A stretch of DNA of 64,000 nt from a bacterium (GTDB lineage Bacteria; Planctomycetota; JAFGQW01): contig JAUHXU010000004.1 of the NCBI GenBank assembly GCA_030426805.1, positions 46,792 through 110,791 on the forward strand, read 5' to 3'. Each line of letters opens with the position of its first letter. Positions within the stretch are counted from its first letter, which is position 1. Shown here piece after piece: positions 205-29,675 of this stretch. Under the pieces are notes generated by a model. The model had not been told where the DNA came from and did not search any database. It was given only the letters and a program-made list of their open reading frames with translations. A program made the position numbers and the translations under genes.

Positions 205-289
205 GCTTATTTCCTACCCGGTATCGACACGGTCGCTCCTCGCGGACGGGCGGGTTCGCGACGAGACGTGGGAGCTGTGCATCATCGCG

Positions 290-3280: not shown

Positions 3281-3296
3281 TGGCACACCATTTGTA
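3281..3296 (+). promoter_or_regulatory. candidate sigma-54 (-24/-12) promoter TGGCACaccatTTGT upstream of the second bEBP gene
   Basis: TGGCAC-N5-TTGT has consensus -24 and correct spacing. The -12 is GT rather than the near-invariant GC. It lies ~90 bp upstream of the ATG at 3387, in the only intergenic gap between the two bEBP genes. Confidence 0.3.
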
Positions 3297-3386
3297 AAAA
3301 CATTCGCGGCGCGAGACACGCGCACACATCGACGCAGGGACAGGAGCCGCCGGGGGGCCGGCGTGAATCGAACAGGGGACATCAGG

Positions 3387-4790
3387 ATGGGAACGCATCG
3401 GATTCTGGTCGTCGGCGAGCATGCCGACGAGCGGCGACTGCTCGAGGAAGCGCTCGCCGGTCACGTGGTGGAGAGTCGCGCGTCGGCCGACGACGCGATG
3501 ACGGCGATCGCACAGCACGCGTACGACGCGTTGTTCGTGTCGCGATCGTCGACGGACGAGTCGCTCGAGTCGTGGGTGGCGCGCGTGCGCGATCTGCACG
3601 CCGCGCTCCCGATCGTCGTGATCGACGACGCCGACGCGGCGCCGACCGGTCGCGGCGTCGCGCTGGTCGCCGTGCTTGCGCGGCCCGTCGGCCCGACGCA
3701 GGTGCACGCGGCTGTCGAGGCCGTTCGCCATGCGCTGCGCAGCGGGCACGAGGTCGCCTTTCTCCGGGACTACGCATTCGAGTCGCGCGACGTACTCGTC
3801 GGCGACTCGCCGGCGGCGCACGCGCTGGAACGGGCGATCGCCGAAGCGGCGACCCATCGGCGCCCGGTGCTGCTTCACGGCGAGCCGGGCACCGGCAAGC
3901 GAACGGCTGCGCTTCGACTGCACCGCACGAGTGCGCGTGCCGCGCAACCGTTCGTCGTCGTGGACTGCGGCGCGTCGCCCGAGGGGATGCTCACCCGCGA
4001 GCTGTTCGGCGGCCCGGGCCGGCACTGCGGCGAGACCGCCGGCCGGGTGGGGCTCGCCGACGGCGGCACGCTCCTCCTCGATCGCGTCGACCTGATGCCG
4101 CTCGGCTGCCAGGCGCGGCTCGCGGCGTTGCTCGCCGACGGCGCCTACGAGCGTGGCGACGGCGTGCGGACCGCGGTCGACGTCCGGATCGTCGCGACGA
4201 CGGTCCGCGACCTGCACCGCGCAGCCGAGTCGGGTGCCGTGCGCCGCGACGTGCTCGAGCGACTCGGCACGACGGTCATCGGGCTCGCGCCGCTGGCGGA
4301 GCGGGTCGAGGACATTCCGTTCCTGGTCGAGCACTTCATCGACGCGCTGGGTCCGCGCTCGACCGTGCGCGCGTTCGGGCCGGAGGCGATGGAGCGCTTG
4401 AGCGCCTACGAGTGGCCCGGCAACGTGCGCGAACTCGAGATCCTCGTGCAGCGCCTCGGCGTCCTCGACTTCGGCGAGGAGATCATGCCGGAGCACCTGC
4501 CGCCGGAGATCAGCGGCCAGCACGGTAGCGGCGATCCCTATTCGGCACTCGTCGGCATGAGCATCCACGACATCGAGCGTGAGATGATCCTGAAGACGCT
4601 GGACGAGACCGGCCACAACAAGACGGCCGCTGCGAAGGTGCTCGGGCTGACCGCGCGCACGCTGCACAACAAGCTGCGCCTGTATCGCGAGCAGGGGATC
4701 ATCGCCCAGGACGACTACCGACCGCTCCGGCGGGACGTCGGCCACCCGCACGGGGCGCGCCCGACCGAGACGCACTCCGAGCGCGTGTAG
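3387..4790 (+). CDS. bEBP-family AAA+ transcriptional regulator lacking the GAFTGA motif; receiver-like N-terminus without phospho-acceptor Asp
   Basis: Has GEPGTGKRTAALRLH, EWPGNVRELEILVQRL and C-terminal HTH HNKTAAAKVLGLTARTLHNKL. Where GAFTGA should sit, the sequence reads ELFGGPGRHCGETAGR. The N-terminal CheY-like fold has Ser at the expected Asp position (YDALFVSRSS). Confidence 0.75.
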   Translation: MGTHRILVVGEHADERRLLEEALAGHVVESRASADDAMTAIAQHAYDALFVSRSSTDESLESWVARVRDLHAALPIVVIDDADAAPTGRGVALVAVLARPVGPTQVHAAVEAVRHALRSGHEVAFLRDYAFESRDVLVGDSPAAHALERAIAEAATHRRPVLLHGEPGTGKRTAALRLHRTSARAAQPFVVVDCGASPEGMLTRELFGGPGRHCGETAGRVGLADGGTLLLDRVDLMPLGCQARLAALLADGAYERGDGVRTAVDVRIVATTVRDLHRAAESGAVRRDVLERLGTTVIGLAPLAERVEDIPFLVEHFIDALGPRSTVRAFGPEAMERLSAYEWPGNVRELEILVQRLGVLDFGEEIMPEHLPPEISGQHGSGDPYSALVGMSIHDIEREMILKTLDETGHNKTAAAKVLGLTARTLHNKLRLYREQGIIAQDDYRPLRRDVGHPHGARPTETHSERV

Positions 4791-6762: not shown

Positions 6763-7902
6763 TCAGCGCTGCGGCGTGACCGGTGTGACCGCCGGCGTCG
6801 GTTTCGCGGCCGGGCGCACGCCGTGGAAGCCGGCGACCGAGCGCACCTGCGTGCCGTCGTCGCCGCGCAGATAGGTGCCGCCGATCCCGCTCTGGCGCGT
6901 CAGTGCGCGTGCGTTGTGCTTGAAGGCGGAGTGGTGGCGGCCCGAACCGTCGTGCCCGAGCATCATCAGTTTGCCGGTCGCGTCGTAGCTTCCGAGCAAG
7001 ACGCCGGTCGGACCGTAGTGGTGGAGCTTGAGCTTGCCGTCGCTGCCCCAGGTCGACAGCGGGCGTCCGAACGCGTCGTAGGTCATGAAGGCGCGTTTGC
7101 CGTTGTTGCCGATCTTGCTCTGGGTCGCGTCGAGGTAGGGCGACGTCACGTGCACGGGCCGATGGTTCTGGTGCGTGAAGAAGACGTCGAGCCCCTTCGG
7201 GTTGCCCATGCCTTCCGGCAAGCCGGACAAGCGCCCGAGCCCGGGGTGATCGCGCAACGACCCCGCCGGCGTGAAGTCCGGGTTGAACGGTCCGCGCGGC
7301 AACGCCTCGAGTCCCGCGAAGCCCTTCTCGTTCCACCGGAAGCGCATGCGGTTGCCGCTCGCATCGGCCATCTCGGTGATGCGTCCACGGCCGTCGCGGC
7401 CGGGGCGTTCGGCCCATGCCGGGATGCGACTCGTGTTGAATGCTTGCACGTCCGGCGGCGACGAGAGGATCTCCTCGGCGTGGAGCGTGGACGGCGCGTT
7501 CATCAATTCGGCCAGCGTATCGACACCCGGTGAGGCGGGGTTCGGATCGTTGCGGAGCCCCCGGAGCGCGTTGCCGGCGTAGCCGCCGCGGATCTGCAGC
7601 AGGTCGGAGATCGTGCGCGGCTGCTCCCCACTCGTCGCGCCGGTCGGACGGGCGGGTTTGAGCAGGTCGAGCACGCCGCCGTTGGCTTTCTTCTCGCGAT
7701 CCGAACCGGTGACCTCGGTGTCCAGCAACTTCGACGGCGTGAGCTTCGTCGGATCCTCGCCGCGTTGCACGGCGCGCAGACGCTCGAGGAGCGACGGCTT
7801 GTGCGGGGCCGGGTCGGGCGTCTGCGCCGTGGCGGTGCCGGCGATGAGCGCTGCGAACGCGACCGCTGCGGCGGTCGGCGTGCTGAAACGTGTCGCGATC
7901 AT
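6763..7902 (-). CDS. secreted hypothetical protein with YD-like repeats
   Basis: N-terminal signal peptide MIATRFSTPTAAAVAFAALIAGTATAQ. Contains FMTYDAFGRP..HYGPTGVLLGSYDATGKL, reminiscent of YD/RHS repeats. Confidence 0.55.
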   Translation of the reverse strand: MIATRFSTPTAAAVAFAALIAGTATAQTPDPAPHKPSLLERLRAVQRGEDPTKLTPSKLLDTEVTGSDREKKANGGVLDLLKPARPTGATSGEQPRTISDLLQIRGGYAGNALRGLRNDPNPASPGVDTLAELMNAPSTLHAEEILSSPPDVQAFNTSRIPAWAERPGRDGRGRITEMADASGNRMRFRWNEKGFAGLEALPRGPFNPDFTPAGSLRDHPGLGRLSGLPEGMGNPKGLDVFFTHQNHRPVHVTSPYLDATQSKIGNNGKRAFMTYDAFGRPLSTWGSDGKLKLHHYGPTGVLLGSYDATGKLMMLGHDGSGRHHSAFKHNARALTRQSGIGGTYLRGDDGTQVRSVAGFHGVRPAAKPTPAVTPVTPQR

Positions 7903-8012
7903 CGGATGGGGCTCCTCCGTGGCGGGGCCGGGTCTCGACCGGATACGAGAACACGGTACACTCTACCACTGCGCGCGCCACCCGACCACCTGGGGAACTG
8001 CCCGGAGAGATC

Positions 8013-9296
8013 GTGTCCCGAACCAAGACCCCGCCCCCGACGAGCCGCTCGATCGCGCGTGCCCTCGGCTGGGCGCGCGGACGGGCCGTGCGCCGTCGCT
8101 CCCGCCGGCTCTTCCTCGGCGGCCTGTGCGGCGTCCTGGGCCTGGTTTGCGCCGCGGCGCTCTGGACGGACTGGTCGACCGTGCGGCTCGCGATCGTCGG
8201 CGGCGGGGCGGCGCTGGGTGCGGGGGCGCTCGCCTGGGCCGTGGCGCGGGCGTGGCCGCTGCCCTCGGCGCTCGCGGCCCGGGTCGCCGACCGCGGCCTC
8301 GCCCTCGGCGACCGCCTCCTCACCGGGCTCGACCCGGCGGCGGCCGGCCCGTTCGCCGGGGTCGTGCGCGGTGAGCTCGACGCCCGCCTGGGCGACGACC
8401 GGCTGGTCCCGACCGGCACCGTCACCCGATCTCCGCGCTGGCTGCGACGGTGGCGGCTTCACCTGTTGATCGCGCTGTTGCTCGTGTTGCTGTTCTCGCT
8501 GCACGGTGTGTTCGGTCCCGGCCTCCGGTTGCGACCGGGCGGCGCGGGTGGCGATCGCACGGTGCCGGCGACCGTCGGCGGCGTCGAAGCGACGCTCGAA
8601 CTCGCGATCGACGCGGGCGCCTCGAACCCGTTCGCCCGCGGCGCGCCGATTCCGGTGCGCGTGCGGTTGCGCGGGGGCGCCGGTGCGGTGCGGCCGCTGC
8701 GCGTCCGGATCGACGAGGCGTCGCCGCTCGCGCTCGCGCAGTCGATCGGCCCGGATGGCGACATCGCGTTCGACCTGGGACCGGCGTTTCGACGCACGGG
8801 CCGGGAGCAGACCGGTCGCCACGTCGTGCGGGCGTTCATCGAGGCCGACGACGGCCGACGCCTCGAGTCCGATCCGCTCGAGATCGTCATCGGCGACGGC
8901 AGCGGTGACGGCGGCGGCGCGGGGGGGGAGTCCGAACAGTCCGACACCCCCGACGCGGCGGACCGTCCGAAGGACGAGCCGGCCCGCGAAGAGCCGTCGA
9001 ACCAGCCCCCGCCGATGGGGGCGCCCGAGCGCGTCGAGATCGTGCGCCGCCCGTTCTTCGTCGCGCCACTCGTCGATGAGAACGGCGACATCGTCGACGG
9101 CGAGCGCTGGACCCTCGAGTACCTGACCGGCGGCGGTCGTTCGGCGCGTGCCGGCGGCGGCGACGGGCCGACCTCGCTGCGCGATCTCCTGCAGCGCTAC
9201 GAGCGGCAAGCCGAGCGCGCGATGGCCCGCGACGCGGTGCCGGCCCACTTGCGCGACGTCTACCGTCGCTACTTGCGCGAGTTGACACGCCGGTGA
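8013..9296 (+). CDS. hypothetical membrane protein (2-3 TM, acidic low-complexity tail), first gene of DUF58/BatA module
   Basis: TM helices LFLGGLCGVLGLVCAAAL and LHLLIALLLVLLFSL. Start taken at GTG 8013 rather than 7890 to avoid overlapping the convergent gene. Its stop overlaps the next start (GTGA). Confidence 0.45.
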   Translation: MSRTKTPPPTSRSIARALGWARGRAVRRRSRRLFLGGLCGVLGLVCAAALWTDWSTVRLAIVGGGAALGAGALAWAVARAWPLPSALAARVADRGLALGDRLLTGLDPAAAGPFAGVVRGELDARLGDDRLVPTGTVTRSPRWLRRWRLHLLIALLLVLLFSLHGVFGPGLRLRPGGAGGDRTVPATVGGVEATLELAIDAGASNPFARGAPIPVRVRLRGGAGAVRPLRVRIDEASPLALAQSIGPDGDIAFDLGPAFRRTGREQTGRHVVRAFIEADDGRRLESDPLEIVIGDGSGDGGGAGGESEQSDTPDAADRPKDEPAREEPSNQPPPMGAPERVEIVRRPFFVAPLVDENGDIVDGERWTLEYLTGGGRSARAGGGDGPTSLRDLLQRYERQAERAMARDAVPAHLRDVYRRYLRELTRR

Positions 9297-10168
9297 CGTG
9301 CGCGCTCCCGCAAGACGTGCTGCGCCTGCTCGACCGCAGCGAACTCGCGTTCGGCACCGTGCGGCGCGGGCGCATCGGAGGCGTGCGCGAGAGTGAGGCG
9401 CTCGGTGCCGGCACCGACTTTCACGACTACCGGCACTACGTCCCCGGCGACGACATGCGGTTTCTCGACTGGAACGCGCTCGGCCGACTCGGCGAGGCAC
9501 ACGTCAAGCGGTTCCGGCAGGACGAGACCGGGCGACTGACGCTGTTGATCGACCGGAGCGCATCGATGGCGGCCGACGCCGCGGCCGCGACGGCGCGCAC
9601 GATCGCCGCGGCCGTCGGCTACACCGGCCTCGCGACCGGCTACGACGTCGAACTCGCGCCGGTGCCGGGCGACGACGTGCGACTCGAGGGGAGTCGCTGG
9701 CGCGGTCGGGGCGCCGCCGGGCCGCTGTTCGAACAACTCGACGGACTCGGCTTCGGATCGCGCGTCGGCCTCGCGGATGCGCTCAACCGGACCGCCGGCA
9801 GTCGAGATCTCGGCTCGGTCGCGGTGCTCGTCACCGACTTCGCGGAACCGGGCGGCGCCGACCGCGTGCTGCGGATCTTCCGCACGCGCCGGTGTCGGGT
9901 CGCGGTCGTGCAGGTGCTGCATCCCGCGGTGATCCCGTCGCTCGGCTACCACGAGATCATCGACCCGGAGGTGCGCGAGGACACGCGCGTGCGGGTCCGT
10001 GTGACGCGCCGCGTGCAAGACGCGTTCCGCGCCCGCTTGGCGCGCTACCACGAGCACGTGCGGCTCCGCTGCCGGGCGTTCGACGTCCGCCACGCGGTGG
10101 TCGACGCCGGAACGGCTGCCGACCGTGCGCTCGTCGTCGCGCTGAAGGACGGGGGCGTGCTCCGGTGA
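9293..10168 (+). CDS. DUF58 domain protein (vWA-like, MoxR-associated family)
   Basis: The motif GTDFHDYRHYVPGDDMRFLDWNALGRL is the hallmark of DUF58. GTG start overlaps the upstream stop. Confidence 0.75.
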   Translation: MTCALPQDVLRLLDRSELAFGTVRRGRIGGVRESEALGAGTDFHDYRHYVPGDDMRFLDWNALGRLGEAHVKRFRQDETGRLTLLIDRSASMAADAAAATARTIAAAVGYTGLATGYDVELAPVPGDDVRLEGSRWRGRGAAGPLFEQLDGLGFGSRVGLADALNRTAGSRDLGSVAVLVTDFAEPGGADRVLRIFRTRRCRVAVVQVLHPAVIPSLGYHEIIDPEVREDTRVRVRVTRRVQDAFRARLARYHEHVRLRCRAFDVRHAVVDAGTAADRALVVALKDGGVLR

Positions 10169-11883
10169 TCTTCCGCGCGCCCGAGGCGCTGGCCATGCTC
10201 GCCCTCGTCGTTCCGGTCGTCCTCCTCTACGTCGTGCGGGCGCGCCGTCGTGCGATGCAGGACCCGTTTCAGTTTCTGTGGGTCGGCCTGGCCCGCGAGC
10301 GACCGCGCTGGGGCCGGTTGCACCGTTGGCTGGAACTCGCACTCGTGACGATCGCGCTCGCGGCGATGGTCGTCGGGCTCGCTCGACCGGTCACGCCGAC
10401 GTCCGAGGCGCCGCCGCGCGTGCGGATCGTCGCGATCGCCGAGCCGAGCGCGGATGCGCTCGATCGTGCACGGGCGCTCGTCGCCGCGCTCGGTCCGGGC
10501 GAGACGGCGGCCGTCGTCGTCTCCTCGATCGACGGCGCTCGGGTCGCGTTGCCTCCGACGGGGGCGCCGGTGGCTCGGGACGCGTTCGACGTCGACCCGA
10601 CCGCGCCGCGGGATCGTGCCGCGGTCGCGGGGTCGGCCGCGAGGATCGCCGACGCGTTCGCGGGCGCGGAGGTGCATTGGCTCGACACCGGCGTCGAGGC
10701 GCTCTCGTTGCCCCGCGGTTGGCGAGGGCACGCGGTCGCACCGCGCGGGCTGCGCCTGGCGATCGAGGACGTGCAGCGCGCGGCCGACGGTCGGGTCTCG
10801 GCGCGCCTCGTCAACCGTGGCGCCGATCGCTGGCGCGGCCCGTTCCGCGCGACGCTCGGTGACCGGACGCTCGCCGAGGAACTCGTCGAACTCGACCCGA
10901 ACGCCGAGCGGTCGATCGCGTTCGCGGTCGACCCGATGGCCCGTGGGATCGTGCGGCTCGCACTGGCCGACATCGATGCGGTGCTCGCGTTGCCGAATGC
11001 GCGACCGGCGCGGATCGCGGTCGTCGCGCGCGGGGGGGCCGCGTCCTACGTCGGCCGGCTGCTCGCGTGTTTCGACCCGGTCGTCGATCCCGACGGAACC
11101 GTGCTGATCGCCCCGGATCGCGTCGACCGCGTCACGCGGGACGCGTTCGATTTCGCGCTGGTGCTGGGCCCCGCGCCGGCGACCGATCTTCCGGTGCCGG
11201 CGATCTACTTCGGCGCGCCGAATCCCCTCGTCTCGATCGACGCCGACGGCGACACGGGACCGATCCGCGTCACCGACGCCGCGCGGGATCACGCGCTGCT
11301 CGCCGCGGTCGACCTCGGGACCGTCGGGGCCCACCGCAGCGTCGCGTGTCGGGCGGCTGCCGGCGTCGCGGTGCTCGCGCGCGCCGAAGGACGGCCGGTC
11401 CTGTTTCACCGCCCGCCGGGCGCCGCGCCGGAAGCGCTCGCGTTCTCGTTTCGGCTACGTGACTCGAACCTGCTGTTCGAGCCGGCCCTCGTCGTGCTGA
11501 TCGCGAATGCGATCGAGCGGTGGGGGCCGACGGTCGTGGGCGGGGTCGCGGACGCACCGCTCTCGCTGCCGGTCGGCGCGTCGGTGCGCATCGCGCGGCG
11601 CGGCGACGACGGGCCGATCTGGTCCGGTCTCGAGGGCGACGGCTACCCGTTCCGGCCGCGCCGTGCCGGGCGCTTCGACGTGTCACTCGCGGATCGGGCG
11701 CTCGATGCGTGGGTCGCCCCGCGGTCGGGTGTCGCGGACGCGTCGACCGCCTGGGAGCGCCCTGCGGACCTCGCCGCGCCCCGGCCGCGGGACGGATGGC
11801 ACGAGCGAGCGCTCTGGCTCGCGTGGCTCGCCCTCGCGCTGCTGTGCCTCGAATGGGTGCTGTTCCACCGCGGCATCCTCTGA
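10165..11883 (+). CDS. BatA-like membrane protein (aerotolerance-regulator N-terminal domain)
   Basis: N-terminal MLALVVPVVLLYVVRARRR matches the BatA_N signature. C-terminal TM LWLAWLALALLCLEWVLF. GTGA overlap with DUF58 stop. Confidence 0.55.
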   Translation: MIFRAPEALAMLALVVPVVLLYVVRARRRAMQDPFQFLWVGLARERPRWGRLHRWLELALVTIALAAMVVGLARPVTPTSEAPPRVRIVAIAEPSADALDRARALVAALGPGETAAVVVSSIDGARVALPPTGAPVARDAFDVDPTAPRDRAAVAGSAARIADAFAGAEVHWLDTGVEALSLPRGWRGHAVAPRGLRLAIEDVQRAADGRVSARLVNRGADRWRGPFRATLGDRTLAEELVELDPNAERSIAFAVDPMARGIVRLALADIDAVLALPNARPARIAVVARGGAASYVGRLLACFDPVVDPDGTVLIAPDRVDRVTRDAFDFALVLGPAPATDLPVPAIYFGAPNPLVSIDADGDTGPIRVTDAARDHALLAAVDLGTVGAHRSVACRAAAGVAVLARAEGRPVLFHRPPGAAPEALAFSFRLRDSNLLFEPALVVLIANAIERWGPTVVGGVADAPLSLPVGASVRIARRGDDGPIWSGLEGDGYPFRPRRAGRFDVSLADRALDAWVAPRSGVADASTAWERPADLAAPRPRDGWHERALWLAWLALALLCLEWVLFHRGIL

Positions 11884-13433: not shown

Positions 13434-14978
13434 ATGAGTGCACACGAACTCGTTCTCGTCCTCGACCTCGGGGCGCAATACACGCAGCTGATCGCGCGAC
13501 GCGTCCGCGAGGAGCGCGTCTATTGCGAGGTGCATCCGTGCACGATTTCGCTCGACGAGATCCGGGCGAAGAAGCCGGCGGGGCTGATCCTGTCCGGCGG
13601 TCCCGGCAGCGTATACACGGACCGCGCACCGACGGTCGACCCCGGCGTGTTCACGCTGGGCGTGCCGGTGCTCGGGATCTGCTACGGCCAGCAGCTGATG
13701 ACGAGCGCGCTCGGCGGCGAGGTCGCGTCGTCGGACGTGCGCGAGTTCGGCCACGCCGATCTCACCGTGAACGCGCCGAGCCCGCTCACCGAAGGCCTGC
13801 CCGACGCGTTTCGCGTGTGGATGAGCCACGGCGACAAGGTCGAGAAGCTCGCGCCGGGCTTCGTGCCACTCGCGAGCACACCGGACTGTCCGCTCGCGAT
13901 CGTCGGTGACACGGAGCGGCGGCTCTACGGGCTGCAGTTCCACCCGGAGGTCACGCACTCCGACCACGGCGCGGGGCTGTTCCGCAACTTCCTGCGCGGC
14001 ATCTGCGGGCTCACCGGCGACTGGGAGATGGCGACGTTCGTCGAAGAGGCGATCGCGCAGATCCGCGAACAGGTCGGCGACGGCCGCGTGATCTGCGGGC
14101 TGTCGGGCGGCGTCGATTCGTCGGTCGTCGCGCTCCTCGTGCACCGTGCAATCGGCGACCGGTTGCAGTGCATCTTCGTCGACAACGGGCTGTTGCGCAA
14201 AGACGAGGTCCGGATGGTCGACGAGACGTTCCGGCGTCACTACAAGATCCCGCTGACGACGGTGCGTGCCGCCGATCGCTTCCTCACCGCGCTCGCCGGC
14301 GAGACCGATCCCGAGACGAAGCGCAAGACGATCGGGCACATCTTCATCGACGTCTTCCGCGAGGAGGCCGAGCGCGTCGAGGGGGCGAAGTTCCTCGCGC
14401 AGGGCACGCTCTACCCCGACGTGATCGAGAGCGTCAGCGCGTTCGGCGGCCCGACCGCGGTGATCAAGAGCCACCACAACGTCGGCGGGTTGCCGGAGCA
14501 ACTCGGCTTCGACCTGGTCGAGCCACTGCGCTTCCTGTTCAAAGACGAGGTGCGCGAGGTCGGCCGAGTGCTCGGCCTGCCCGAGCAGTTCGTGATGCGT
14601 CAGCCGTTCCCGGGACCGGGCCTCGCGGTGCGGATCCCGACCGCGATCACCGCCGACGACGTCGCGATCCTTCAGGACGCCGACGCGATCCTCCGCGAGG
14701 AGATCGAGGCGGCCGGGCTCGAGCGCGTCTACTGGCAATACTTCGCGGTGTTGCTGCCGGTGCGAAGCGTCGGCGTGATGGGCGACAACCGGACCTACGA
14801 GCAGGCGGTGGGGCTCCGGCTGATCGAGAGCACCGACGGCATGACCGCCGACTGGGGCTACCCGCCGCGCGACGTGCTGCGAAAGATCTCCAACCGGATC
14901 ATCAACGAGGTCCGCGGCGTGAACCGCGTCGTCCTCGACATCTCGAGCAAGCCGCCCGCGACGATCGAATGGGAATAG
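13434..14978 (+). CDS. guaA: GMP synthase (glutamine-hydrolysing)
   Basis: GATase domain with [10 protein letters not shown], then the ATP-PPase SGGVDSSV motif. Lies 5 bp after guaB. Confidence 0.95.
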
Positions 14979-15037
14979 CGGCGCTTCGCGTCGCGAAACC
15001 GATGCGTCGGCGGGACAGGGGGCGAGGAGGATCCGTG

Positions 15038-17095
15038 ATGGCTCGTACCGTTGGACCGGCTTGGCTCGCCGCGACCGCGCTCCTGATCGCCGCGTCCGGA
15101 ACCACGCAAGACGATCGACCCGATCCGAAACCGGATCCGCGTGCGCTCGAGGAGTTCGACGCGAACGGCGACGGCAAGCTCGATGCGAGCGAGCGACGTC
15201 GGATGCGGTGGCGCGAACGGTTCGGTCGACGCGGCGGTGACGGCCGCCGCGGGCAGGGCCGGGGGCCCGGCGGCCCGCGCGCGACGAAGACCGCGGTCGC
15301 CGAGCGCTTCGACGCCGACGGCAACGGCTGGCTCGACCGCGCCGAACGCGACAAGGCGCGAGCCTGGGTGGCCGAGAACGTTCGCCGACGTGGTCCCGGT
15401 GGCCCCGGTGGTCGCGGTCCCGGTGGCGGGGGCCCCGGCGGGCGGGAGGAGGTCTCCGACGAGCCGCCGATCGAGCCCGAGCGGCTCGCGCCGGACGGCG
15501 TCACCGCCTACCGCGATCGTGGTCTCTACGAACCGACCGTCGTCCGCACGCTCTTTCTCGACTTCGCGCACGACGACTGGGCGGACGAGCTCACCGCGTT
15601 CTACCGCACCGACGTCGAGGTGCCGGCGACGCTGACGATCGACGGCGAGCGCTTCGAGCGCGTCGGCGTCCGCTTTCGCGGCAACTCGTCGTTCTTCACG
15701 GTGGCCGCCGACCGCAAGCGATCGCTCAACGTGTCGGTCGACTTCACGCATCCGGGGCGAGGGTTGCACGGCCACCGCACGCTGAACTTGCTCAATGCGC
15801 ACACCGACCCGTCGTTCCTGCGGAGCTTCCTCTTCGCGCGCGTCGCATCGGACTACGTGCCGGCTCTGCAGGCGAACTTCGTCAAGGTCGTGATCAACGG
15901 CAAGAGCCACGGCATCCACGTCAACGTCGAGCAGTTCAACAAGGACTTCCTCGCGCGGGCGTACGGCACACGCAAGGGTGTCCGCTGGAAGGTCCCGCCG
16001 AACTTCGGCGGCGACGGCGGGTTGCGCTGGCTCGGTGAGGATCTCGCACCCTACCGCGCCGCGTACGCGCTGAAGACCGGAAGCGCGGGCGACGACGCAT
16101 GGCAGCGGCTCGTCGCGTTGTGCCGGATGCTCCACGAAGCGTCGGCCGAGGCACTCGAGCGTGAGTTGCCGTCGATCCTCGCGGTCGACGAAGCGCTGTG
16201 GGCGCTTGCGATCGACAACGTCCTGATGGACGCCGACGGCTACCACAGCCGCGCGAGCGACTACAACCTCTACCTCGACCCGGACGGCCGCTTCCACGTG
16301 ATCGCCCACGACAACAACGAGACGTTTCGCCTGCGCGCGGACGGCCCGGGTGGTCCGCGCGGTCGGCGCCGGGCGCCCGCGGGGGACGCACCGGAGCCCG
16401 ACCTCGCACCGGACATGACGCCACGCGAGCGCCTGCGTGCCCGACTGCGCGCACGCGGGGTCGGCGGGAGCGGCGGGGCCGGCTGGTCGCCGCTCGAGCA
16501 CGCCGACACCGACGAACGGCCGTTGATCCGCCGCTTGCTCGCGGTGCCCGCGTGGCGTGCGCGCTACCTGCACCACGTGAAGACGATCGCCGAGCGGTCG
16601 CTCGACTGGGCGTGGCTCGAACCGATCGCACGGGACGCGCACGACCGGATCGCCGACGACGTCGCGCGGGATCCACGCCGGCTCTACTCGCTCGCGGCGT
16701 TTCGCACGAGCCTCGACGGGACGTCGGGCGGCCGCACGCCGTCGATCGAGCACTTCGCGTCCCGGCGCCGCGCGTTTCTGCTCGGTCACGCGTCGCTCGC
16801 CGGGCCGTGGCCGACGATCGAGCGAGTCGCCGTGGACGGCGGTGCAGACGGGCGTGTCGCGTTCACGGCTCGCGTCGATGGCGAGCGCGCGATCGCGTCC
16901 GTGCGCCTGTGGGTGCGCGCGACCGCGCGAGCCCCGTTCGAGCGCGTCGCGATGACGCGAGCGGACGGTGTCTGGCGCGCCGCCGTCGCGCACGATCGCG
17001 TGCGCGACTACTACGTCGAGGCGATCGACGAGGGCGGTCGCGCGGCATACGCACCGCGACTCGCCGACGCGGCGCCGTCGACGCTCCCGGAGTAG
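15038..17095 (+). CDS. CotH-like (atypical kinase fold) secreted protein with two EF-hand-like Ca-binding motifs and Gly/Pro-rich linker
   Basis: Signal peptide MARTVGPAWLAATALLIAASG. DANGDGKLDASE and DADGNGWLDRAE fit DxDxDG loops. The CotH-type core reads AVDEALWALAIDNVLMDADGYHSRASDYNLYLDPDGRFHVIAHDNNETF. RBS GAGGAGG upstream. Confidence 0.6.
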   Translation: MARTVGPAWLAATALLIAASGTTQDDRPDPKPDPRALEEFDANGDGKLDASERRRMRWRERFGRRGGDGRRGQGRGPGGPRATKTAVAERFDADGNGWLDRAERDKARAWVAENVRRRGPGGPGGRGPGGGGPGGREEVSDEPPIEPERLAPDGVTAYRDRGLYEPTVVRTLFLDFAHDDWADELTAFYRTDVEVPATLTIDGERFERVGVRFRGNSSFFTVAADRKRSLNVSVDFTHPGRGLHGHRTLNLLNAHTDPSFLRSFLFARVASDYVPALQANFVKVVINGKSHGIHVNVEQFNKDFLARAYGTRKGVRWKVPPNFGGDGGLRWLGEDLAPYRAAYALKTGSAGDDAWQRLVALCRMLHEASAEALERELPSILAVDEALWALAIDNVLMDADGYHSRASDYNLYLDPDGRFHVIAHDNNETFRLRADGPGGPRGRRRAPAGDAPEPDLAPDMTPRERLRARLRARGVGGSGGAGWSPLEHADTDERPLIRRLLAVPAWRARYLHHVKTIAERSLDWAWLEPIARDAHDRIADDVARDPRRLYSLAAFRTSLDGTSGGRTPSIEHFASRRRAFLLGHASLAGPWPTIERVAVDGGADGRVAFTARVDGERAIASVRLWVRATARAPFERVAMTRADGVWRAAVAHDRVRDYYVEAIDEGGRAAYAPRLADAAPSTLPE

Positions 17096-17101
17096 GACGC
17101 C

Positions 17102-18304
17102 CTACACGCGGCCGAGCGCGTCGCGCAGCGCGGCTGCGAGCCACGCGATGTGCTCCGGTCGGTGGTCCGCGCGTACGGTCCAGCGCACGAGTTCGCCGCG
17201 GTCGGCCGCCGGGTAGACGAAGGGCGCGAGGAACACGCCGTGTGCGCGGCCGCACGCGTCGACCGCTTCGGCGCGCGGCGCGTCGATCGCGAAGATCGGG
17301 ACCGGCGAACCGCCGGTCCCGATGCCGACCCGCGAGCACGCGGCGTGCACGCGCATCACGTTCGTCCGCAGCCGCTCGACGCGGTCGGGTTCGTCGACGA
17401 CGATCGCGAGTGCCGTGCGGGCCGCGACCGCGAGTGCCGGCGCGAGCGCGGTGCTCGCGCGGTAGGCGTGGCTGTGGTCGCGCACCGCATCGCACAGCGC
17501 ACGGTCACCGGCGACGTAGCCGCCGTGCGCGCCGAGCGCCTTGCTGTAGACGCCGGTGCGGCAGGTCCGTACCGGGTCGATGCCCGCGTGCTCGAACACG
17601 CCGCGCCCCTCCGGGCCGATCGTGCCGATCGCGTGCGCCTCGTCGACGACGAGGATGCCGTCGTCGCCGACCGCATCGAGCAGGTCCGCGACCGGTGCGA
17701 TCGCGCCGTCGACCGCGAACACGCCGTCGGTGATCAGCCCCGCCCGCCCGTCCCGGGCTCGCGCGAGGCGGCGCGCGTCGTCCGCGTCGCGATGGCGGAA
17801 GTGCTCGACCGGCTTGCGCGACTGCCGGAGCGCGACGGCGATGCTCGGGTGCGCGTTCGCGTCGCACAACCAGTGGTCGACCCGGTCGTCGAGCACTTCC
17901 ACCGCGGCGAGGTTCGCGAGGAAGCCGGCGGGCAGGCTCAGGCACGCCTCGACGCCGAGGAACGCCGCCGTGTCGCGCTCGAGCGCGACGTGCGGCGCGA
18001 GCCGGCCGGTCGTGACCGGCGATGCGCTCGCACTCGTTCCAAACGCGGCGAGCGCGTCGCGTGCGGCGTCGACGACGCGCGAGTCCCCGGCCAACCCGAG
18101 GTAGTTCGTCCCCGTGAACGCGACGAGTTCGCTGCCGTCGACGAGGGTGGTGGGGCCGGCCGGCACGGTCAGCGCCCGAGTCGCTGGCGCCAGGCCCAGC
18201 GGTAGAGGTTGCGGCTGTCGACGTAGCGCGCCGCCGACGATTGTGCACCGAGCACGACGAGCAACAGCCGTTTGCCGTCGCGCTCCGACATCGACGCGAG
18301 GCAC
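17102..18304 (-). CDS. alpha-oxoamine synthase family PLP enzyme (8-amino-7-oxononanoate synthase BioF-like)
   Basis: N-terminus VGARRQTAVARRAR...LVDGSELVAFTGTNYLGL parallels the BioF region ending ...NFSSNDYLGL. PLP-lysine region reads GVYSKALGAHGGY. The only in-frame start is GTG at 18304, which overlaps the upstream gene's 3' end by ~136 bp. Confidence 0.6.
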   Translation of the reverse strand: MPRVDVGARRQTAVARRARCTIVGGALRRQPQPLPLGLAPATRALTVPAGPTTLVDGSELVAFTGTNYLGLAGDSRVVDAARDALAAFGTSASASPVTTGRLAPHVALERDTAAFLGVEACLSLPAGFLANLAAVEVLDDRVDHWLCDANAHPSIAVALRQSRKPVEHFRHRDADDARRLARARDGRAGLITDGVFAVDGAIAPVADLLDAVGDDGILVVDEAHAIGTIGPEGRGVFEHAGIDPVRTCRTGVYSKALGAHGGYVAGDRALCDAVRDHSHAYRASTALAPALAVAARTALAIVVDEPDRVERLRTNVMRVHAACSRVGIGTGGSPVPIFAIDAPRAEAVDACGRAHGVFLAPFVYPAADRGELVRWTVRADHRPEHIAWLAAALRDALGRV

Positions 18305-26878: not shown

Positions 26879-29675
26879 CGCCTGCGTCGCGCTGCTTCTC
26901 GGCGCCGCGATGTGCGGCGCGGTGTCCGCTCAACCGACCGATCCGGTCGCGCAGCGACTCGGCACAATGACGCTCGACGAGAAGGTCGGGCAGTTGCTCG
27001 CGATCGCGTTCACCCCGCGCGACGGGGCGACGGCTGCCGGCTTCGACAAGCACGTCCGCGACGTCCGCGAACTCGGGATCGGCGGCGTCACGTTCTTCCG
27101 CGGATCGGTCGGGCCCGTGCGGGAGTGCCTCGCCGCGCTTTCCGCAGCCGCGAAGACGCCGCTCGCGGTCATGTCGGACGTCGAGTTCGGGCTGCCGATG
27201 CGCGTCAACGAGGGGACGCGGATGCCGCTCAACATGGCGCAGGGGGCGACCGGCGATCCGTCGCTCGCCTACCAGGCGGGACGGGTGACGGCGATCGAGG
27301 CGCGGGCGGTCGGCATCCACGTCGCGTTCGCGCCCGTCGTCGATGTGAACAACAACCCCGGCAACATCATCATCAACACGCGTTCCTACGGCGAGGATCC
27401 GGCCGCGGTCGGGCGCTTCGGGAGCGCGTTCATCCGCGGGCTGCAGGAGCACGGTGTGTTCGCGACCGCGAAGCACTACCCCGGTCACGGCGACACGTCG
27501 GTCGACTCGCACCTGTCGCTGCCGACGATCGACGCGTCTCGCGAGCGGCTGGAACGCGTCGAACTGGCGCCGTTCGCCGCGGCCGTCAAGGCGGGGGTGC
27601 GGTGCGTGATGGTCGGGCACATCACGTTCAGTCGCGTCCCGGAGATGAAGGGGCGGCCGGCGAGCCTCGACCCGCACTTCGTGGATCGGGTCTTGCGCGG
27701 GTCGATGGGCTTCGACGGCCTCGTGATCACGGACGCGATGAACATGGGCGGCATCACGGAGCACTACGGGCACGGCGAGGCCGCGGTGATGGCGATCGAG
27801 GCCGGCGTGGACGTCGTGCTGATGCCGGGTGACGTGCGTGCCGCGCACGCCGCGCTCGTCGCCGCGGTGAAGACCGGCCGACTCGCGAAGGCGCGGCTCG
27901 ACGCGTCGGTCGAGCGCATCCTGCGATTGAAGGCCGATGCGGGCCTGCTCGGGGGCGGCACGCGGCCGGCGCCGGGCGCGGTCGAGACCGTCCTGCGCGC
28001 GCCGGATCACGTCGCGGTCGCCGAGCGGATCGCCGATCGGGCGGTCACGCTCGTCGCCGACCGGCGCGGTGTCGTTCCGCTCGCCGCGGAGCGACTGCGC
28101 GACGTCGTCGTCGTCACGGTGACCGACGAGCGCCGCGGTCGAACCCGAGGCGGTGCGTTTCTCGCCGAAGTGCGTCGGCGGATCCCGGACGCGGCGGCGG
28201 AGCGGATCGACCCGACGACGTCCGCGAAGGCAGCGGCGGCGATCGTCTCGCGCGCGAAGAAGGCGGACGCGGTCGTCGTCGCGATCACCGTGAAATGGCG
28301 CGACCGCAAGGGGAGCATCGCGCTGCCGGACGAGACCGTCGAGCGACTCGCGCGCCTCCTTCGGATCAAGACGCCGCTCGTCGTCGTCGCGTTCGGGTCG
28401 CCGTACGTGCTCGGACAACTCCCCGCTGCACCGGCGGCGCTGTGCGTCTACGACCCGTCGACGCTCGCGGCCGGCGCGGCGGCGCGGGCGCTCTTCGGCG
28501 AGTGCGCGATCGGCGGGCGGCTGCCGGTCTCGATTCCCGGACGTTTCGCGCGCGGCGTCGGGCTCGACCGAGCCGCCCGTACGATGACACTCGAGCGGGC
28601 GCTCGACGACAAGCGGTTCCGGGCGGCGTGGTCGGTGCTCGAGGAGCGGATCGAGAAGAAGGTCTTCCCCGGCGCCCAGGTCGCGATCGTGCGCGATGGC
28701 GCGCTCGTCGCGAGCCGCGGCTTCGGCCGACTGACCTACGACGACAACGCGTCGAAGGTGACGACGGAGACGGTCTACGACGTCGCGTCGGTGACGAAGG
28801 TCGCTGCGACGACGACGGTCGCGATGGTGCTCGCCGATCGCGGGGCGCTCGACCTCGACAAGCCGGTCGTCGACTACCTGCCGTCGTTCAGCGGCGGCGG
28901 CAAGGAGGGCGTCACGGTGCGCCACCTGCTGACGCACACGTCGGGCTTGCCGGCGTGGGCGAAGCTGTGGAGCCACGGGGATCGCGCAGCGGCGTTGGCC
29001 TACATCGACGGCGTGACGCTCGCGTCACGGCCGGGGGCGAAGGCGAAGTACTCCGACCTCGGGATGATCACGCTCGGGCGCGTGCTCGAACGCGTCGGCA
29101 AGGCACCGCTCGACGAACTCGCGCGCGACCTCGTGTTTGCACCGCTCGGGATGACGCATACGACGTTCCGGCCGCCGGCCGCGTGGCGACCGCGGATCGC
29201 GCCGACCGAGGAGGGGGGCGACCTCGATCGCGGGCGCATTCTCGGCGACGTGCACGACGAGAACGCCCATTTCCTCGGCGGCGTCGCCGGGCACGCGGGA
29301 GTCTTCTCGACGGCCGAGGACCTCGCGGTCCTCGCGCAGGCCTACCTCGACGGCGGCATGCACCGCCATCATCGACTGTTCCGACCGGCGACCGTCGAGG
29401 CGTGGACGTCGCGACAGAACCTCGTCGTAGGCAGCAGTCGGGCCCTCGGTTGGGACACGCCGAGCGCGCGCGGCTCGCTCGCCGGCGACCGCTTCTCGAA
29501 GCAGAGCTTCGGCCACACCGGCTTCACCGGGACGTCGATCTGGGTCGACCGGGCGCGTCGCATCGCGATCGTCTTGCTGACGAACCGCGTGCACCCGACC
29601 CGCACCCGTGGCGGCATGCGGGAAGCGCGCCGGGCGTTTTACAACGCGGCGATGAAGGCGGCGATCGCCCGGTGA
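26859..29675 (+). CDS. fusion: GH3 beta-N-acetylhexosaminidase (NagZ-like, two-domain) + C-terminal beta-lactamase-family serine hydrolase
   Basis: Signal peptide present. GH3 motifs include KHYPGHGDTSVDSHL and the catalytic region VITDAMNMGGI. The C-terminal ~340 aa has SVTK (SxxK) and HLLTHTSGLP, matching class-C/PBP4*-like beta-lactamases. Confidence 0.8.
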   Translation: MRSIFRSACVALLLGAAMCGAVSAQPTDPVAQRLGTMTLDEKVGQLLAIAFTPRDGATAAGFDKHVRDVRELGIGGVTFFRGSVGPVRECLAALSAAAKTPLAVMSDVEFGLPMRVNEGTRMPLNMAQGATGDPSLAYQAGRVTAIEARAVGIHVAFAPVVDVNNNPGNIIINTRSYGEDPAAVGRFGSAFIRGLQEHGVFATAKHYPGHGDTSVDSHLSLPTIDASRERLERVELAPFAAAVKAGVRCVMVGHITFSRVPEMKGRPASLDPHFVDRVLRGSMGFDGLVITDAMNMGGITEHYGHGEAAVMAIEAGVDVVLMPGDVRAAHAALVAAVKTGRLAKARLDASVERILRLKADAGLLGGGTRPAPGAVETVLRAPDHVAVAERIADRAVTLVADRRGVVPLAAERLRDVVVVTVTDERRGRTRGGAFLAEVRRRIPDAAAERIDPTTSAKAAAAIVSRAKKADAVVVAITVKWRDRKGSIALPDETVERLARLLRIKTPLVVVAFGSPYVLGQLPAAPAALCVYDPSTLAAGAAARALFGECAIGGRLPVSIPGRFARGVGLDRAARTMTLERALDDKRFRAAWSVLEERIEKKVFPGAQVAIVRDGALVASRGFGRLTYDDNASKVTTETVYDVASVTKVAATTTVAMVLADRGALDLDKPVVDYLPSFSGGGKEGVTVRHLLTHTSGLPAWAKLWSHGDRAAALAYIDGVTLASRPGAKAKYSDLGMITLGRVLERVGKAPLDELARDLVFAPLGMTHTTFRPPAAWRPRIAPTEEGGDLDRGRILGDVHDENAHFLGGVAGHAGVFSTAEDLAVLAQAYLDGGMHRHHRLFRPATVEAWTSRQNLVVGSSRALGWDTPSARGSLAGDRFSKQSFGHTGFTGTSIWVDRARRIAIVLLTNRVHPTRTRGGMREARRAFYNAAMKAAIAR

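What the first reader, a model, noticed from the sequence alone, without database searches (positions are those of the whole stretch)
15038..17095. Secreted CotH-like atypical kinase with tandem EF-hand-like calcium loops
CotH proteins are atypical Ser/Tyr kinases (Bacillus spore coat, fungal invasins). This one has a signal peptide, two canonical DxNGDGxLDxxE loops separated by Arg/Gly-rich linkers, and a Gly/Pro-rich spacer before the CotH core. This suggests a Ca2+-regulated extracellular or periplasmic kinase or adhesin in a non-sporulating Gram-negative.
Basis: partly seen in the sequence, partly recalled or inferred. Interest (0 to 1): 0.55.

Follow-up and report, generated by a model that had tools for sequence, protein, structure and literature searches.

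The report
Exported EF-hand CotH-family kinase, Planctomycetota
The gene encodes an exported enzyme of the CotH "spore-coat kinase" family carrying two calcium-binding EF-hand loops. It is a real but ordinary member of a large, already annotated and biochemically untested family in Planctomycetota and other Gram-negative (two-membrane) phyla.

Summary
Window 15038..17095 (+) is a genuine 685-aa gene with these parts:
- a signal-peptide-like N-terminus;
- two canonical 12-residue EF-hand loops (41-52 and 92-103);
- Arg/Gly/Pro-rich disordered linkers;
- a CotH core (Pfam PF08757, E 5e-33; predicted fold matches B. cereus CotH with a TM-score of 0.85);
- a previously unnoted C-terminal Ig-like beta-sandwich.

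The two aspartates shown by experiment to be needed for B. subtilis CotH activity are conserved (D400, D425).

The host is an uncultured Planctomycetota bacterium. The protein is not unusual. More than 3,000 relatives exist in Planctomycetota, Verrucomicrobiota, Poribacteria, Acidobacteriota and Spirochaetes. Many are already named "CotH kinase family protein", and many show EF-hand and lamin-tail domain hits.

New details:
- The EF-hand next to the kinase is conserved in 119 of 120 relatives, while the upstream EF-hands vary from 0 to 4.
- The metal-binding Asn of Bacillus CotH is always Asp here.
- In 20 of 84 related loci the gene sits beside a VTC-type polyphosphate-polymerase domain gene and a DUF4956 membrane-protein gene. 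Neither gene is present in this window.

Verdict: a new member of a known kind. Kinase activity, calcium control, substrate and phosphate donor are all inferred, not shown.

The parts
15026..15031 (+). Ribosome-binding site GGAGGA, 6 nt upstream of the ATG at 15038. It lies in the 59-bp gap after the guaA stop (14978).
   Evidence: Sequence read directly. guaA identified by Pfam.
15038..17095 (+). Whole gene: 685-aa exported EF-hand/CotH/Ig-like protein, including the stop codon.
15038..15100 (+). Signal-peptide-like N-terminus (about residues 1-21): MAR, hydrophobic core, then small residues AAS/G.
   Evidence: Inspection of the sequence. Hydrophobic N-termini are conserved in all 25 aligned relatives. 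Low-confidence helix 7-18 in the model. No predictor was run.
15137..15226 (+). EF-hand 1 (residues 34-63; loop D41-E52 at nt 15158-15193). Present in about half of the relatives.
   Evidence: Sub-threshold Pfam EF-hand hits over residues 36-52.
15227..15295 (+). Arg/Gly-rich disordered linker 1 (residues 64-86).
   Evidence: Arg+Gly+Pro fraction 0.71, computed for residues 63-86. pLDDT below 50 for residues 65-78.
15296..15379 (+). EF-hand 2 (residues 87-114; loop D92-E103 at nt 15311-15346) with its exit helix ERDKARAWVAEN. This is the hallmark of the clade.
   Evidence: F91, D92, L99, E103, R104, A107 and R108 are conserved in 114-120 of 120 relatives. pLDDT 95-98.
15380..15481 (+). Gly/Pro/Arg-rich spacer (residues 115-148) between the EF-hand module and the kinase core.
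   Evidence: Arg+Gly+Pro fraction 0.73, computed for residues 116-148. pLDDT 48-54. Short GC-rich DNA repeats only.
15482..16798 (+). CotH atypical-kinase core (residues 149-587; Pfam match 211-581). Key residues: K227 (nt 15716-15718), D400 (16235-16237), D408 (16259-16261), D425 (16310-16312).
   Evidence: Pfam. Profile hit to PDB 5jd9 at E 9.5e-17. Foldseek match to 5jd9/5jda at E 1e-18, target TM-score 0.84-0.85. Residue conservation.
16328..16513 (+). Gly/Pro/Arg-rich, mostly disordered insert (residues 431-492), directly after the DFG-like Asp motif HDNNETF. This is where canonical kinases carry the activation segment. Its length varies among relatives.
   Evidence: B. cereus CotH has about 25 residues here against about 70 in this protein.
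16799..17092 (+). C-terminal Ig-like beta-sandwich domain (residues 588-685). No Pfam model matches it.
   Evidence: Eight strands at pLDDT 92-98. Foldseek hits: the Ig-like domain of P. gingivalis PPAD (E 1e-4), and more weakly CBM56 and Phl p 3. Present in 63 of 120 relatives.

Best explanation
The gene encodes a Sec-exported (periplasmic or surface/secreted) phosphotransferase of the CotH atypical-kinase family, in an uncultured Planctomycetota bacterium.

**Shown here**
- CotH fold and family membership.
- Conservation of the two aspartates that are experimentally essential in B. subtilis CotH.
- Two canonical EF-hand loops.
- Disordered Arg/Gly/Pro-rich linkers.
- A C-terminal Ig-like domain.
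- Membership of a large clade in which the kinase-proximal EF-hand is almost invariant.

**Inferred**
- The protein is exported.
- The EF-hand module binds Ca2+ outside the cytoplasm and either stabilises or switches on the kinase. The invariant exit-helix residues R104, A107 and R108 suggest a conserved contact, beyond what metal binding alone needs.
- The core transfers phosphate to Ser/Thr-rich envelope or matrix proteins, or to a glycan.
- The Ig-like domain positions the enzyme on its target.

The phosphate donor outside the cytoplasm is unresolved. In about a quarter of the related loci examined, the gene is next to a cytoplasmic VTC-type polyphosphate-polymerase domain protein and a DUF4956 membrane protein. 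That points to a link with polyphosphate for the family. This particular copy stands alone, between guaA and a convergent aminotransferase gene.
For: - **Family and fold.** Pfam CotH E 5.3e-33. Profile against PDB 5jd9 E 9.5e-17. AlphaFold2 model with pLDDT 87.9 and pTM 0.86, whose best structural matches are B. cereus CotH 5jd9/5jda, with a TM-score of 0.84-0.85 (normalised to the CotH chain).
- **Catalytic residues.** B. subtilis D228 and D251 are needed for activity (PMC7821199). By alignment they correspond to B. cereus chain D224 and D247 and to D400 and D425 here. These are conserved in 119/120 and 120/120 relatives at about 45% identity. K227 is conserved in 120/120.
- **EF-hands.** Canonical loops, far beyond chance. 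EF-hand 2 is conserved in 119/120 relatives. The family profile hits calmodulin/calcineurin B and a CDPK EF-hand domain. Relatives carry Pfam EF-hand hits.
- **Export.** Hydrophobic N-termini are found across the family.
- **Host.** GuaB relatives are all Planctomycetota.
- **Polyphosphate link.** DUF4956 lies beside the CotH gene in 20 of 84 loci and VTC in 18, across several phyla. This includes P0004, which is 49% identical with the same two-EF-hand architecture.
- **Genetics in a relative.** A secreted CotH-FN3 protein and a DUF4956-type protein contribute to Pel-dependent aggregation in Streptococcus intermedius (PMC12345266).
Against: - No biochemical data exist for any member of this clade.
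- Pfam EF-hand scores for this protein are below the gathering thresholds.
- The Asn that follows the catalytic Asp in Bacillus CotH (B. cereus chain N229) is Asp (D408) in all 120 relatives, and the WDYD motif is HDNNE. So the active-site chemistry, or the preferred metal, may differ.
- ATP is not known to be available in the periplasm.
- No VTC or DUF4956 gene lies in the 64-kb window. The neighbours (guaB, guaA, an aminotransferase, peptidoglycan enzymes) give no functional clue.
- Whether the EF-hand module docks on the kinase could not be examined, because model coordinates and predicted aligned error (PAE) were not available.
Confidence: 0.6

Rival explanations
1. The protein is the extracytoplasmic arm of a polyphosphate-linked system. 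A cytoplasmic VTC-domain enzyme makes polyphosphate, DUF4956 passes it across the inner membrane, and the exported CotH enzyme uses it in one of two ways. It could serve as phosphate donor in place of ATP, or the enzyme could attach or process it on envelope proteins or exopolysaccharide. Ca2+ would act through the EF-hands. In this genome the partner genes would lie elsewhere.
For: - A same-strand CotH-VTC-DUF4956 arrangement occurs in 18-20 of 84 related loci from Planctomycetota, Spirochaetes, Acidobacteriota and others.
- It occurs in P0004, a 49%-identical relative with the same architecture.
- Most of the linked CotH proteins have signal peptides and EF-hand loops.
- The same three genes flank Gram-positive pel operons (PMC7112168).
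- Deleting the S. intermedius CotH or DUF4956-type gene lowers Pel production and aggregation (PMC12345266).
- This reading would solve the problem of having no ATP outside the cytoplasm.
Against: - No VTC or DUF4956 gene lies in this window.
- The closest relative, P0002 (73% identical), also lacks them at the locus.
- None of the 30 Poribacteria loci has them.
- No CotH enzyme has been shown to use polyphosphate.
- The activity of the bacterial VTC domain is itself untested.
Confidence: 0.15
2. The protein is a non-catalytic surface adhesin or scaffold. The CotH fold would serve as a binding module, as proposed for the Mucorales CotH invasins and for the cellulosomal CotH proteins. The EF-hands and the Ig-like domain would provide Ca2+-dependent attachment.
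For: - Rhizopus CotH2, CotH3 and CotH7 act as ligands for host GRP78 and integrin (PMC9973265).
- Cellulosomal CotH proteins are discussed as structural components (PMC12484212).
- The protein has an Ig-like C-terminal domain, and many relatives add a lamin-tail domain.
Against: Catalytic D400 and D425, K227 and other active-site positions are invariant or nearly so across 120 relatives that are only about 45% identical. That pattern is expected for an enzyme, not for a pure binding module.
Confidence: 0.12
3. The protein is a small-molecule or glycan kinase acting on peptidoglycan or exopolysaccharide rather than on proteins. The C-terminal beta-sandwich would act as a carbohydrate-binding module.
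For: - Weak fold similarity of the C-terminal domain to CBM56, Phl p 3 and starch-enzyme N-domains.
- Relatives are tied to Pel polysaccharide loci in Gram-positives.
- Several peptidoglycan-processing genes lie downstream in the window.
Against: - The fold matches for the C-terminal domain are generic Ig-like hits at E values of 1e-4 or weaker.
- The only characterised CotH enzymes phosphorylate proteins (PMC7821199).
- The peptidoglycan genes are on the other strand. They are conserved with the CotH gene only in the closest relative's contig, not in more distant relatives.
Confidence: 0.08

Closest known systems
Bacillus subtilis / B. cereus CotH spore-coat kinase (PDB 5JD9, 5JDA)
   Same: - Same Pfam family and same predicted fold, with a target TM-score of 0.84-0.85.
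- The catalytic Asp and the DFG-like metal-binding Asp are conserved, as is the RG...K.S motif of the N-lobe.
   Different: - About 19% identity.
- This protein has a signal peptide, two N-terminal EF-hands, a C-terminal Ig-like domain and a roughly 45-residue Gly/Pro/Arg-rich insert after the DFG-like motif.
- The Asn that follows the catalytic Asp in Bacillus is Asp here, and WDYD is HDNNE.
- The host does not sporulate, and no cotB- or cotG-like neighbours are present.
Annotated 'CotH kinase family protein' of Planctomycetota, Verrucomicrobiota, Poribacteria and others (e.g. Paludisphaera borealis P0051; P0004)
   Same: - Direct homologues at 40-75% identity over most of the length.
- Same order of parts: signal peptide, EF-hand(s), Gly/Pro linker, CotH core.
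   Different: - The number of EF-hands ranges from 0 to 5.
- Many relatives add a lamin-tail domain after the Ig-like domain; this protein ends at the Ig-like domain.
- About a quarter of the related loci examined sit next to VTC and DUF4956 genes; this one does not.
Streptococcus intermedius SIR_1594 (secreted CotH-FN3) with SIR_1593 (polyP polymerase domain) and SIR_1592 (membrane protein with ACT domain, DUF4956-type), accessory to the pel operon (PMC12345266, PMC7112168)
   Same: - A secreted CotH enzyme with a C-terminal beta-sandwich in a non-sporulating bacterium.
- The same three-gene set is found beside relatives of the window protein.
   Different: - The host is Gram-positive and the genes are linked to a pel locus.
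- No EF-hands are reported for SIR_1594.
- In the Gram-negative loci I examined in detail (L084 and L043) no pel genes were seen nearby.
- The window gene has neither partner adjacent.
Fam20C-type secretory-pathway kinases
   Same: - Kinases that act outside the cytosol.
- CotH is described as distantly related to them (PMC7821199).
   Different: They are eukaryotic Golgi enzymes with a supply of imported ATP. No sequence-level match was detected here.
Calcium-dependent protein kinases (CDPKs) of plants and apicomplexans
   Same: - A kinase fused to its own EF-hand Ca2+ sensor.
- The family profile weakly matches a CDPK EF-hand domain (E 5e-4).
   Different: - CDPKs are canonical eukaryotic protein kinases located in the cytosol.
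- They carry four C-terminal EF-hands joined through an autoinhibitory junction.
- Here one or two N-terminal EF-hands are joined through a disordered Gly/Pro linker to an atypical kinase.
- The resemblance is an analogy, not homology of the kinase part.
Cellulosomal CotH-dockerin proteins
   Same: An extracellular CotH domain fused to a small Ca2+-binding module with paired EF-hand-like loops (background in PMC12484212; the loop structure of dockerins is from my own knowledge).
   Different: - No dockerin Pfam hit at E up to 1.
- The loops here end in Glu at position 12.
- The loops are preceded by an entering helix, as in true EF-hands.

Membership tests
CotH kinase family (Pfam PF08757) | Significant match to the family HMM above the curated cut-off | tested here: met
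   E 5.3e-33, 115.3 bits against 23.8, full-length model 1-322.
CotH kinase family (Pfam PF08757) | Atypical protein-kinase-like fold as in B. cereus CotH | tested here: met
   The AlphaFold2 model (pLDDT 87.9) has 5jd9/5jda as its best Foldseek hits, at E 1e-18 and target TM-score 0.84-0.85. This is a predicted structure, not a solved one.
CotH kinase family (Pfam PF08757) | Catalytic Asp (B. subtilis D228) and metal-binding DFG-like Asp (B. subtilis D251) | tested here: met
   D400 and D425 align to B. cereus chain D224 and D247, with the same 23-residue spacing as D228 and D251. They are conserved in 119/120 and 120/120 relatives.
CotH kinase family (Pfam PF08757) | Asn five residues after the catalytic Asp (Bacillus motif DGFVHN; counterpart of the Mg-binding Asn of canonical kinases) | tested here: not met
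   The aligned position is Asp (D408) in all 120 relatives, and a 3-residue insertion precedes it. This is a clade-wide variant that could still bind metal. Whether the Asn is essential in CotH comes from my own knowledge of canonical kinases, not from a paper I could read.
CotH kinase family (Pfam PF08757) | Phosphotransfer to protein Ser/Thr | not testable with these tools
   Needs an enzyme assay.
EF-hand calcium-binding motif | 12-residue loop with oxygen ligands at positions 1, 3, 5, 9 and 12, Gly at 6 and a hydrophobic residue at 8 | tested here: met
   D41-N43-D45-G46-L48-D49-E52 and D92-D94-N96-G97-L99-D100-E103. None of 200,000 shuffles gave two such loops.
EF-hand calcium-binding motif | Helix-loop-helix secondary structure | tested here: met
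   Model helices 34-40 and 50-63 flank loop 1; helices 88-91 and 101-114 flank loop 2. pLDDT is 81-98.
EF-hand calcium-binding motif | Pfam EF-hand model above its gathering score | tested here: not met
   The best hit is EF-hand_5 at 21.5 bits against 25.9; EF-hand_7 (the pair model) scores 16.0 against 30. Relatives do carry precomputed EF-hand hits, and the family profile hits calmodulin-type chains at E 4e-4.
EF-hand calcium-binding motif | Measured Ca2+ binding | not testable with these tools
   Needs ITC, 45Ca overlay or a structure.
Sec-type signal peptide (exported protein) | Positively charged n-region, hydrophobic h-region of 10 or more residues, small residues before the cleavage site | tested here: inconclusive
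   The sequence MAR / TVGPAWLAATALLIAA / SG fits by eye, and the feature is conserved across the family. No signal-peptide predictor or export assay was available. There is no lipobox Cys.
CotH-VTC-DUF4956 gene cluster | VTC-domain and DUF4956 genes adjacent to the CotH gene | tested here: not met
   tblastn and profile HMM searches of all window ORFs found neither gene. They are present in 18-20 of 84 related loci.
Dockerin | Pfam dockerin match, with duplicated loop-helix segments lacking an entering helix | tested here: not met
   No dockerin family appears among the Pfam hits at E up to 1. The loops have entering helices and Glu at position 12.

The most novel reading that the evidence does not exclude
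EF-hand CotH proteins of Gram-negative bacteria would be the exported catalytic part of an uncharacterised three-component system (VTC-domain polyphosphate polymerase, DUF4956 membrane protein, CotH). The system would deliver polyphosphate across the inner membrane. It would then use the polyphosphate, under Ca2+ control, to phosphorylate or polyphosphorylate envelope proteins or exopolysaccharide where no ATP is available. The window gene would be a detached copy of that catalytic part.
Probability: 0.12. Interest if true: 0.8.

Novelty: new member of a known kind. Interest (0 to 1): 0.33.

Why it matters
As an annotation it changes little. The protein would already be named 'CotH kinase family protein', and thousands of relatives exist.

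Its value is as a pointer to an unstudied question: what do exported CotH kinases do in non-sporulating Gram-negative (two-membrane) bacteria, and where does the phosphate come from outside the cytoplasm? Two family-wide regularities found here make that question testable:
- the near-invariant kinase-proximal EF-hand;
- the recurrent VTC and DUF4956 neighbours, seen here in several phyla; in the two such loci whose neighbours I examined, no pel genes lie nearby.

If Ca2+-gated, polyphosphate-linked phosphorylation outside the cytoplasm exists, it would be a new mode of envelope modification.

Tried and rejected
- **NCBIfam scan:** no family matched.
- **Exact look-up of the source contig:** not on record. 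The cluster look-up gave no names, so the host was inferred from GuaB relatives instead.
- **GTDB genome scan:** the source genome is not a species representative; the best locus is 46% identical.
- **C-terminal domain:** searching a 30-sequence profile of it against 5.8 billion proteins returned one fragment only. Its wider distribution stays unknown, and no Pfam model covers it.
- **Key paper:** Nguyen et al. 2016 (the CotH structure paper) is not held. Active-site mapping therefore rests on the D228/D251 mutants cited in PMC7821199 and on alignment to 5jd9.
- **Literature search 'CotH' + 'Planctomycetes':** the two hits I opened (PMC5673643, PMC7356697) matched only the author name Schoepp-Cothenet in their reference lists. 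Nothing was found on EF-hand CotH proteins.
- **Promoter and terminator scan:** nothing above shuffle expectation.
- **Tandem-repeat scan:** only short GC-rich repeats underlying the Gly/Pro linkers.
- **Opposite-strand 711-aa ORF (14858..16993) and the +2-frame ORF (16198..17733):** rejected as non-coding from GC by codon position.
- **Other copies in the window:** no other CotH paralogue and no other EF-hand-loop ORF.
- **Dockerin reading of the loops:** rejected.
- **EF-hand docking on the kinase:** could not be examined, because the model's coordinates are not exposed.
Full report

Yes. Window 15038..17095 on the + strand is an uninterrupted reading frame of 685 codons. It starts at an ATG that lies 6 nt after a GGAGGA ribosome-binding site, in the 59-bp gap that follows the guaA stop codon. 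The window is about 71% GC, so long spurious ORFs overlap the gene on both strands. GC by codon position (0.75/0.55/0.87) identifies the reported frame as the coding one, and the 711-aa antisense ORF and the +2-frame ORF as artefacts. An identical 685-aa protein exists in NCBI on a 698,920-bp contig.

Pfam CotH (PF08757) matches residues 211-581 at E 5.3e-33, with 115 bits against a cut-off of 23.8.

The two calcium loops are DANGDGKLDASE (41-52) and DADGNGWLDRAE (92-103). Both are canonical 12-residue EF-hand loops. In 200,000 shuffles of the protein, none produced two such loops. The Pfam EF-hand models score just under their thresholds in this protein. A profile of the family does hit calmodulin/calcineurin B and a CDPK EF-hand domain, and many relatives carry precomputed EF-hand hits.

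The linkers are 71-73% Arg+Gly+Pro and are predicted disordered. The N-terminus looks like a Sec signal peptide, and an equivalent hydrophobic N-terminus is present in all 25 aligned relatives. I had no dedicated predictor for this.

**2. What is it?**

An AlphaFold2 model built on 120 relatives is confident (mean pLDDT 87.9, pTM 0.86). It shows:
- an EF-hand module (helices 34-40/50-63 and 88-91/101-114);
- two disordered linkers;
- a well-defined core from residue 149 to 587;
- a mostly disordered insert at 431-492;
- an eight-stranded beta domain at 588-685.

Foldseek places B. cereus CotH (5jd9, 5jda) far ahead of everything else, at E 1e-18 and TM-score 0.84-0.85 normalised to the CotH chain. 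The next hits all align to the C-terminal domain and are Ig-like beta-sandwiches: the Ig domain of P. gingivalis peptidylarginine deiminase at E 1e-4, and more weakly CBM56 and Phl p 3.

**3. Is the active site intact?**

In B. subtilis CotH, the D228Q and D251A substitutions abolish activity (PMC7821199). The profile alignment to 5jd9 puts the Bacillus motif DGFVHNYALY...IPWDYD opposite DGYHSRASDYNLY...IAHDNNE. B. subtilis D228 and D251 (B. cereus chain D224 and D247, the same 23-residue spacing) therefore correspond to D400 and D425.

Across 120 relatives that are only 41-50% identical to the query (apart from P0002 at 74%), D400 is kept in 119, and D425 and K227 in all 120. This argues for an active enzyme rather than a pseudokinase.

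Two clade-wide differences stand out:
- The Asn five residues after the catalytic Asp in Bacillus is Asp (D408) in all 120 sequences.
- The second Asp of WDYD is replaced by an invariant Asn-Glu (N427, E428).

The Gly/Pro/Arg-rich insert follows directly after this DFG-like motif, where canonical kinases have their activation segment. Its length varies widely among relatives.

**4. How common is it, and in which organisms?**

- The word-indexed search found 3,047 relatives among its capped candidates. Many are named 'CotH kinase family protein' from Planctomycetota or Verrucomicrobiota, and many carry EF-hand and lamin-tail (PF00932) hits.
- The exhaustive search of 50%-identity cluster representatives found 616 clusters at E up to 1e-30 and 2,423 at E up to 1e-10.
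These are in Planctomycetota, Poribacteria, Verrucomicrobiota, Spirochaetes, Acidobacteriota and others. The source genome itself is not a species representative.
- The adjacent GuaB has only Planctomycetota among its named best hits, up to 79% identity. The host is therefore an uncultured planctomycete, and 'non-sporulating Gram-negative' is supported.

**5.

(a) EF-hand 2 is a hallmark of the clade. F91, D92, L99 and E103, together with the exit-helix residues R104, A107 and R108, are conserved in 114-120 of 120 sequences. EF-hand 1 is present in about half, and the total number of loops ranges from 0 to 5. Invariance of exit-helix residues that are not metal ligands suggests a conserved protein contact. 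I could not inspect docking in the model, because its coordinates are not exposed.

(b) Gene neighbourhood. I clustered the ORFs that flank the gene in the 80 GTDB loci. Two families recur in 17-19 loci that are not from Poribacteria, on the CotH strand in every locus but one (L077). They are a VTC domain protein (PF09359, E 1.6e-22) and a DUF4956 membrane protein (PF16316, E 2e-13). Profile HMM searches of those 80 loci plus four more (L081-L084) found DUF4956 in 20 of the 84 and VTC in 18, but in none of the 30 Poribacteria loci. P0004, the second-best cluster representative in the exhaustive search, is 49% identical, has the same two EF-hands and is followed directly by VTC and DUF4956. Most CotH proteins linked in this way have clear signal peptides and EF-hand loops. 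So the arrangement is an exported CotH, a soluble VTC domain protein and a membrane protein.

**6. What the literature says**

The same three genes were noticed as accessory genes next to Gram-positive pel operons (PMC7112168). In Streptococcus intermedius the secreted CotH-FN3 protein SIR_1594 and the DUF4956-type membrane protein SIR_1592 contribute to Pel production and aggregation. The authors state that they did not find the three-gene synteny outside pel loci (PMC12345266). In the Gram-negative loci I examined in detail (L084 and L043) no pel genes are nearby. DUF4956 is mentioned in only five held papers. I found nothing on EF-hand CotH proteins or on CotH in Planctomycetota.

**7. The window copy itself**

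Neither VTC nor DUF4956 is present anywhere in the 64 kb, by tblastn or by profile HMM. There is no second CotH gene. The gene follows guaB and guaA on the same strand. It converges on a class I/II aminotransferase gene, with 6 bp between the two stop codons, followed by a gene for a beta-lactamase / PG-binding / DD-carboxypeptidase fusion protein. The closest relative (P0002, 73% identical) has the same downstream neighbours, but P0003 and P0004 do not. The context is therefore lineage-specific synteny and not a functional cluster.

**8. Mechanism**

What is shown: CotH family and fold, conserved catalytic aspartates, canonical EF-hand loops, and the domain order.

What is inferred, in four steps:
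- The protein is exported through Sec.
- The EF-hand module binds Ca2+ outside the cytoplasm and stabilises or activates the kinase through the conserved exit helix.
- The core transfers phosphate to envelope or matrix substrates. This rests on analogy with CotH acting on Ser-rich CotB and CotG (PMC7821199) and with the distantly related secretory kinase Fam20C.
- The Ig-like domain targets the enzyme.

The weak point is the phosphate donor outside the cytoplasm. The VTC and DUF4956 linkage suggests polyphosphate, for part of the family, but nothing in this window supports that directly.

The rivals are a polyphosphate-dependent system, a non-catalytic adhesin and a glycan kinase. They are weighed in their own sections above.

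**9. Verdict**

It is a new member of a known kind. Interest is modest for this locus. The family-level question of Ca2+-gated, possibly polyphosphate-linked phosphorylation outside the cytoplasm is the part worth following.

Noticed in passing
Related loci L084:8001-11721, L043:7923-11638, and L012, L033, L036, L040, L041, L046, L050, L052, L056, L057, L061, L062, L065, L066, L070, L072, L073, L077: A CotH / VTC-domain (polyphosphate polymerase-like) / DUF4956 gene cluster recurs in Planctomycetota, Spirochaetes and Acidobacteriota. It is on the CotH strand in all but one locus (L077). In L084 and L043, the two loci whose neighbours I scanned, no pel genes lie nearby. A 2025 paper on Streptococcus intermedius reported not finding this synteny outside pel loci.
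   Followed up: partly
window 18169-20154 (-), 20865-22103 (-), 23233-24963 (-), 26622-29675 (+), 32495-35467 (+): A run of cell-wall genes in a planctomycete:
- a fusion of class-A-like beta-lactamase, PG-binding domain and S11 DD-carboxypeptidase;
- a GHL10 hydrolase;
- a DUF5009 protein;
- a GH3 (NagZ-like) fused to a serine beta-lactamase/PBP domain;
- a Germane / Golvesin_C / Amidase_3 protein.
   Followed up: no
window 17102-18205 (-): A class I/II aminotransferase gene (BioF/KBL-like, motif SKALG) converges on the CotH gene with only 6 bp between the stop codons. The pairing is conserved in the 73%-identical relative's contig (L081).
   Followed up: partly
Poribacteria loci, e.g. L025:6935-7657: In 24 Poribacteria loci an ECF-type sigma factor gene lies within the 6 kb upstream of the CotH homologue; in the example shown, L025, its ORF ends about 0.35 kb before the CotH match. 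None of the 30 Poribacteria loci has VTC or DUF4956 nearby.
   Followed up: no
C-terminal domain of relatives (e.g. P0005, P0007, P0013, P0014, P0017, P0028): Many relatives carry a conserved insert, DDGxHGDGxAGDGVFG, inside the C-terminal Ig-like domain. The window protein and P0002 lack it.
   Followed up: no
window 39079-40842 (-) and 39950-43579 (+): Two long ORFs with coding-like GC3 overlap by about 900 bp. The + strand ORF has PTPS_related/PMT_2 membrane-domain and sulfatase hits; the - strand ORF has no Pfam hit. The gene model here is unclear.
   Followed up: no
window 83-1084 (+), 3135-4790 (+), 9892-11883 (+): A PP2C-type Ser/Thr phosphatase, a sigma-54 activator (AAA+ with Fis-type HTH) and a protein with a BatA N-terminal domain lie upstream. 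In the spirochaete locus L043 a MoxR/DUF58/BatA operon follows the CotH-VTC-DUF4956 cluster. This is probably coincidence.
   Followed up: no
window 6763-7962 (-) and 7887-9296 (+): An ORF with a weak RHS-repeat hit, and an adjacent 469-aa ORF with no Pfam family, overlap at their ends. Both have coding-like GC3.
   Followed up: no
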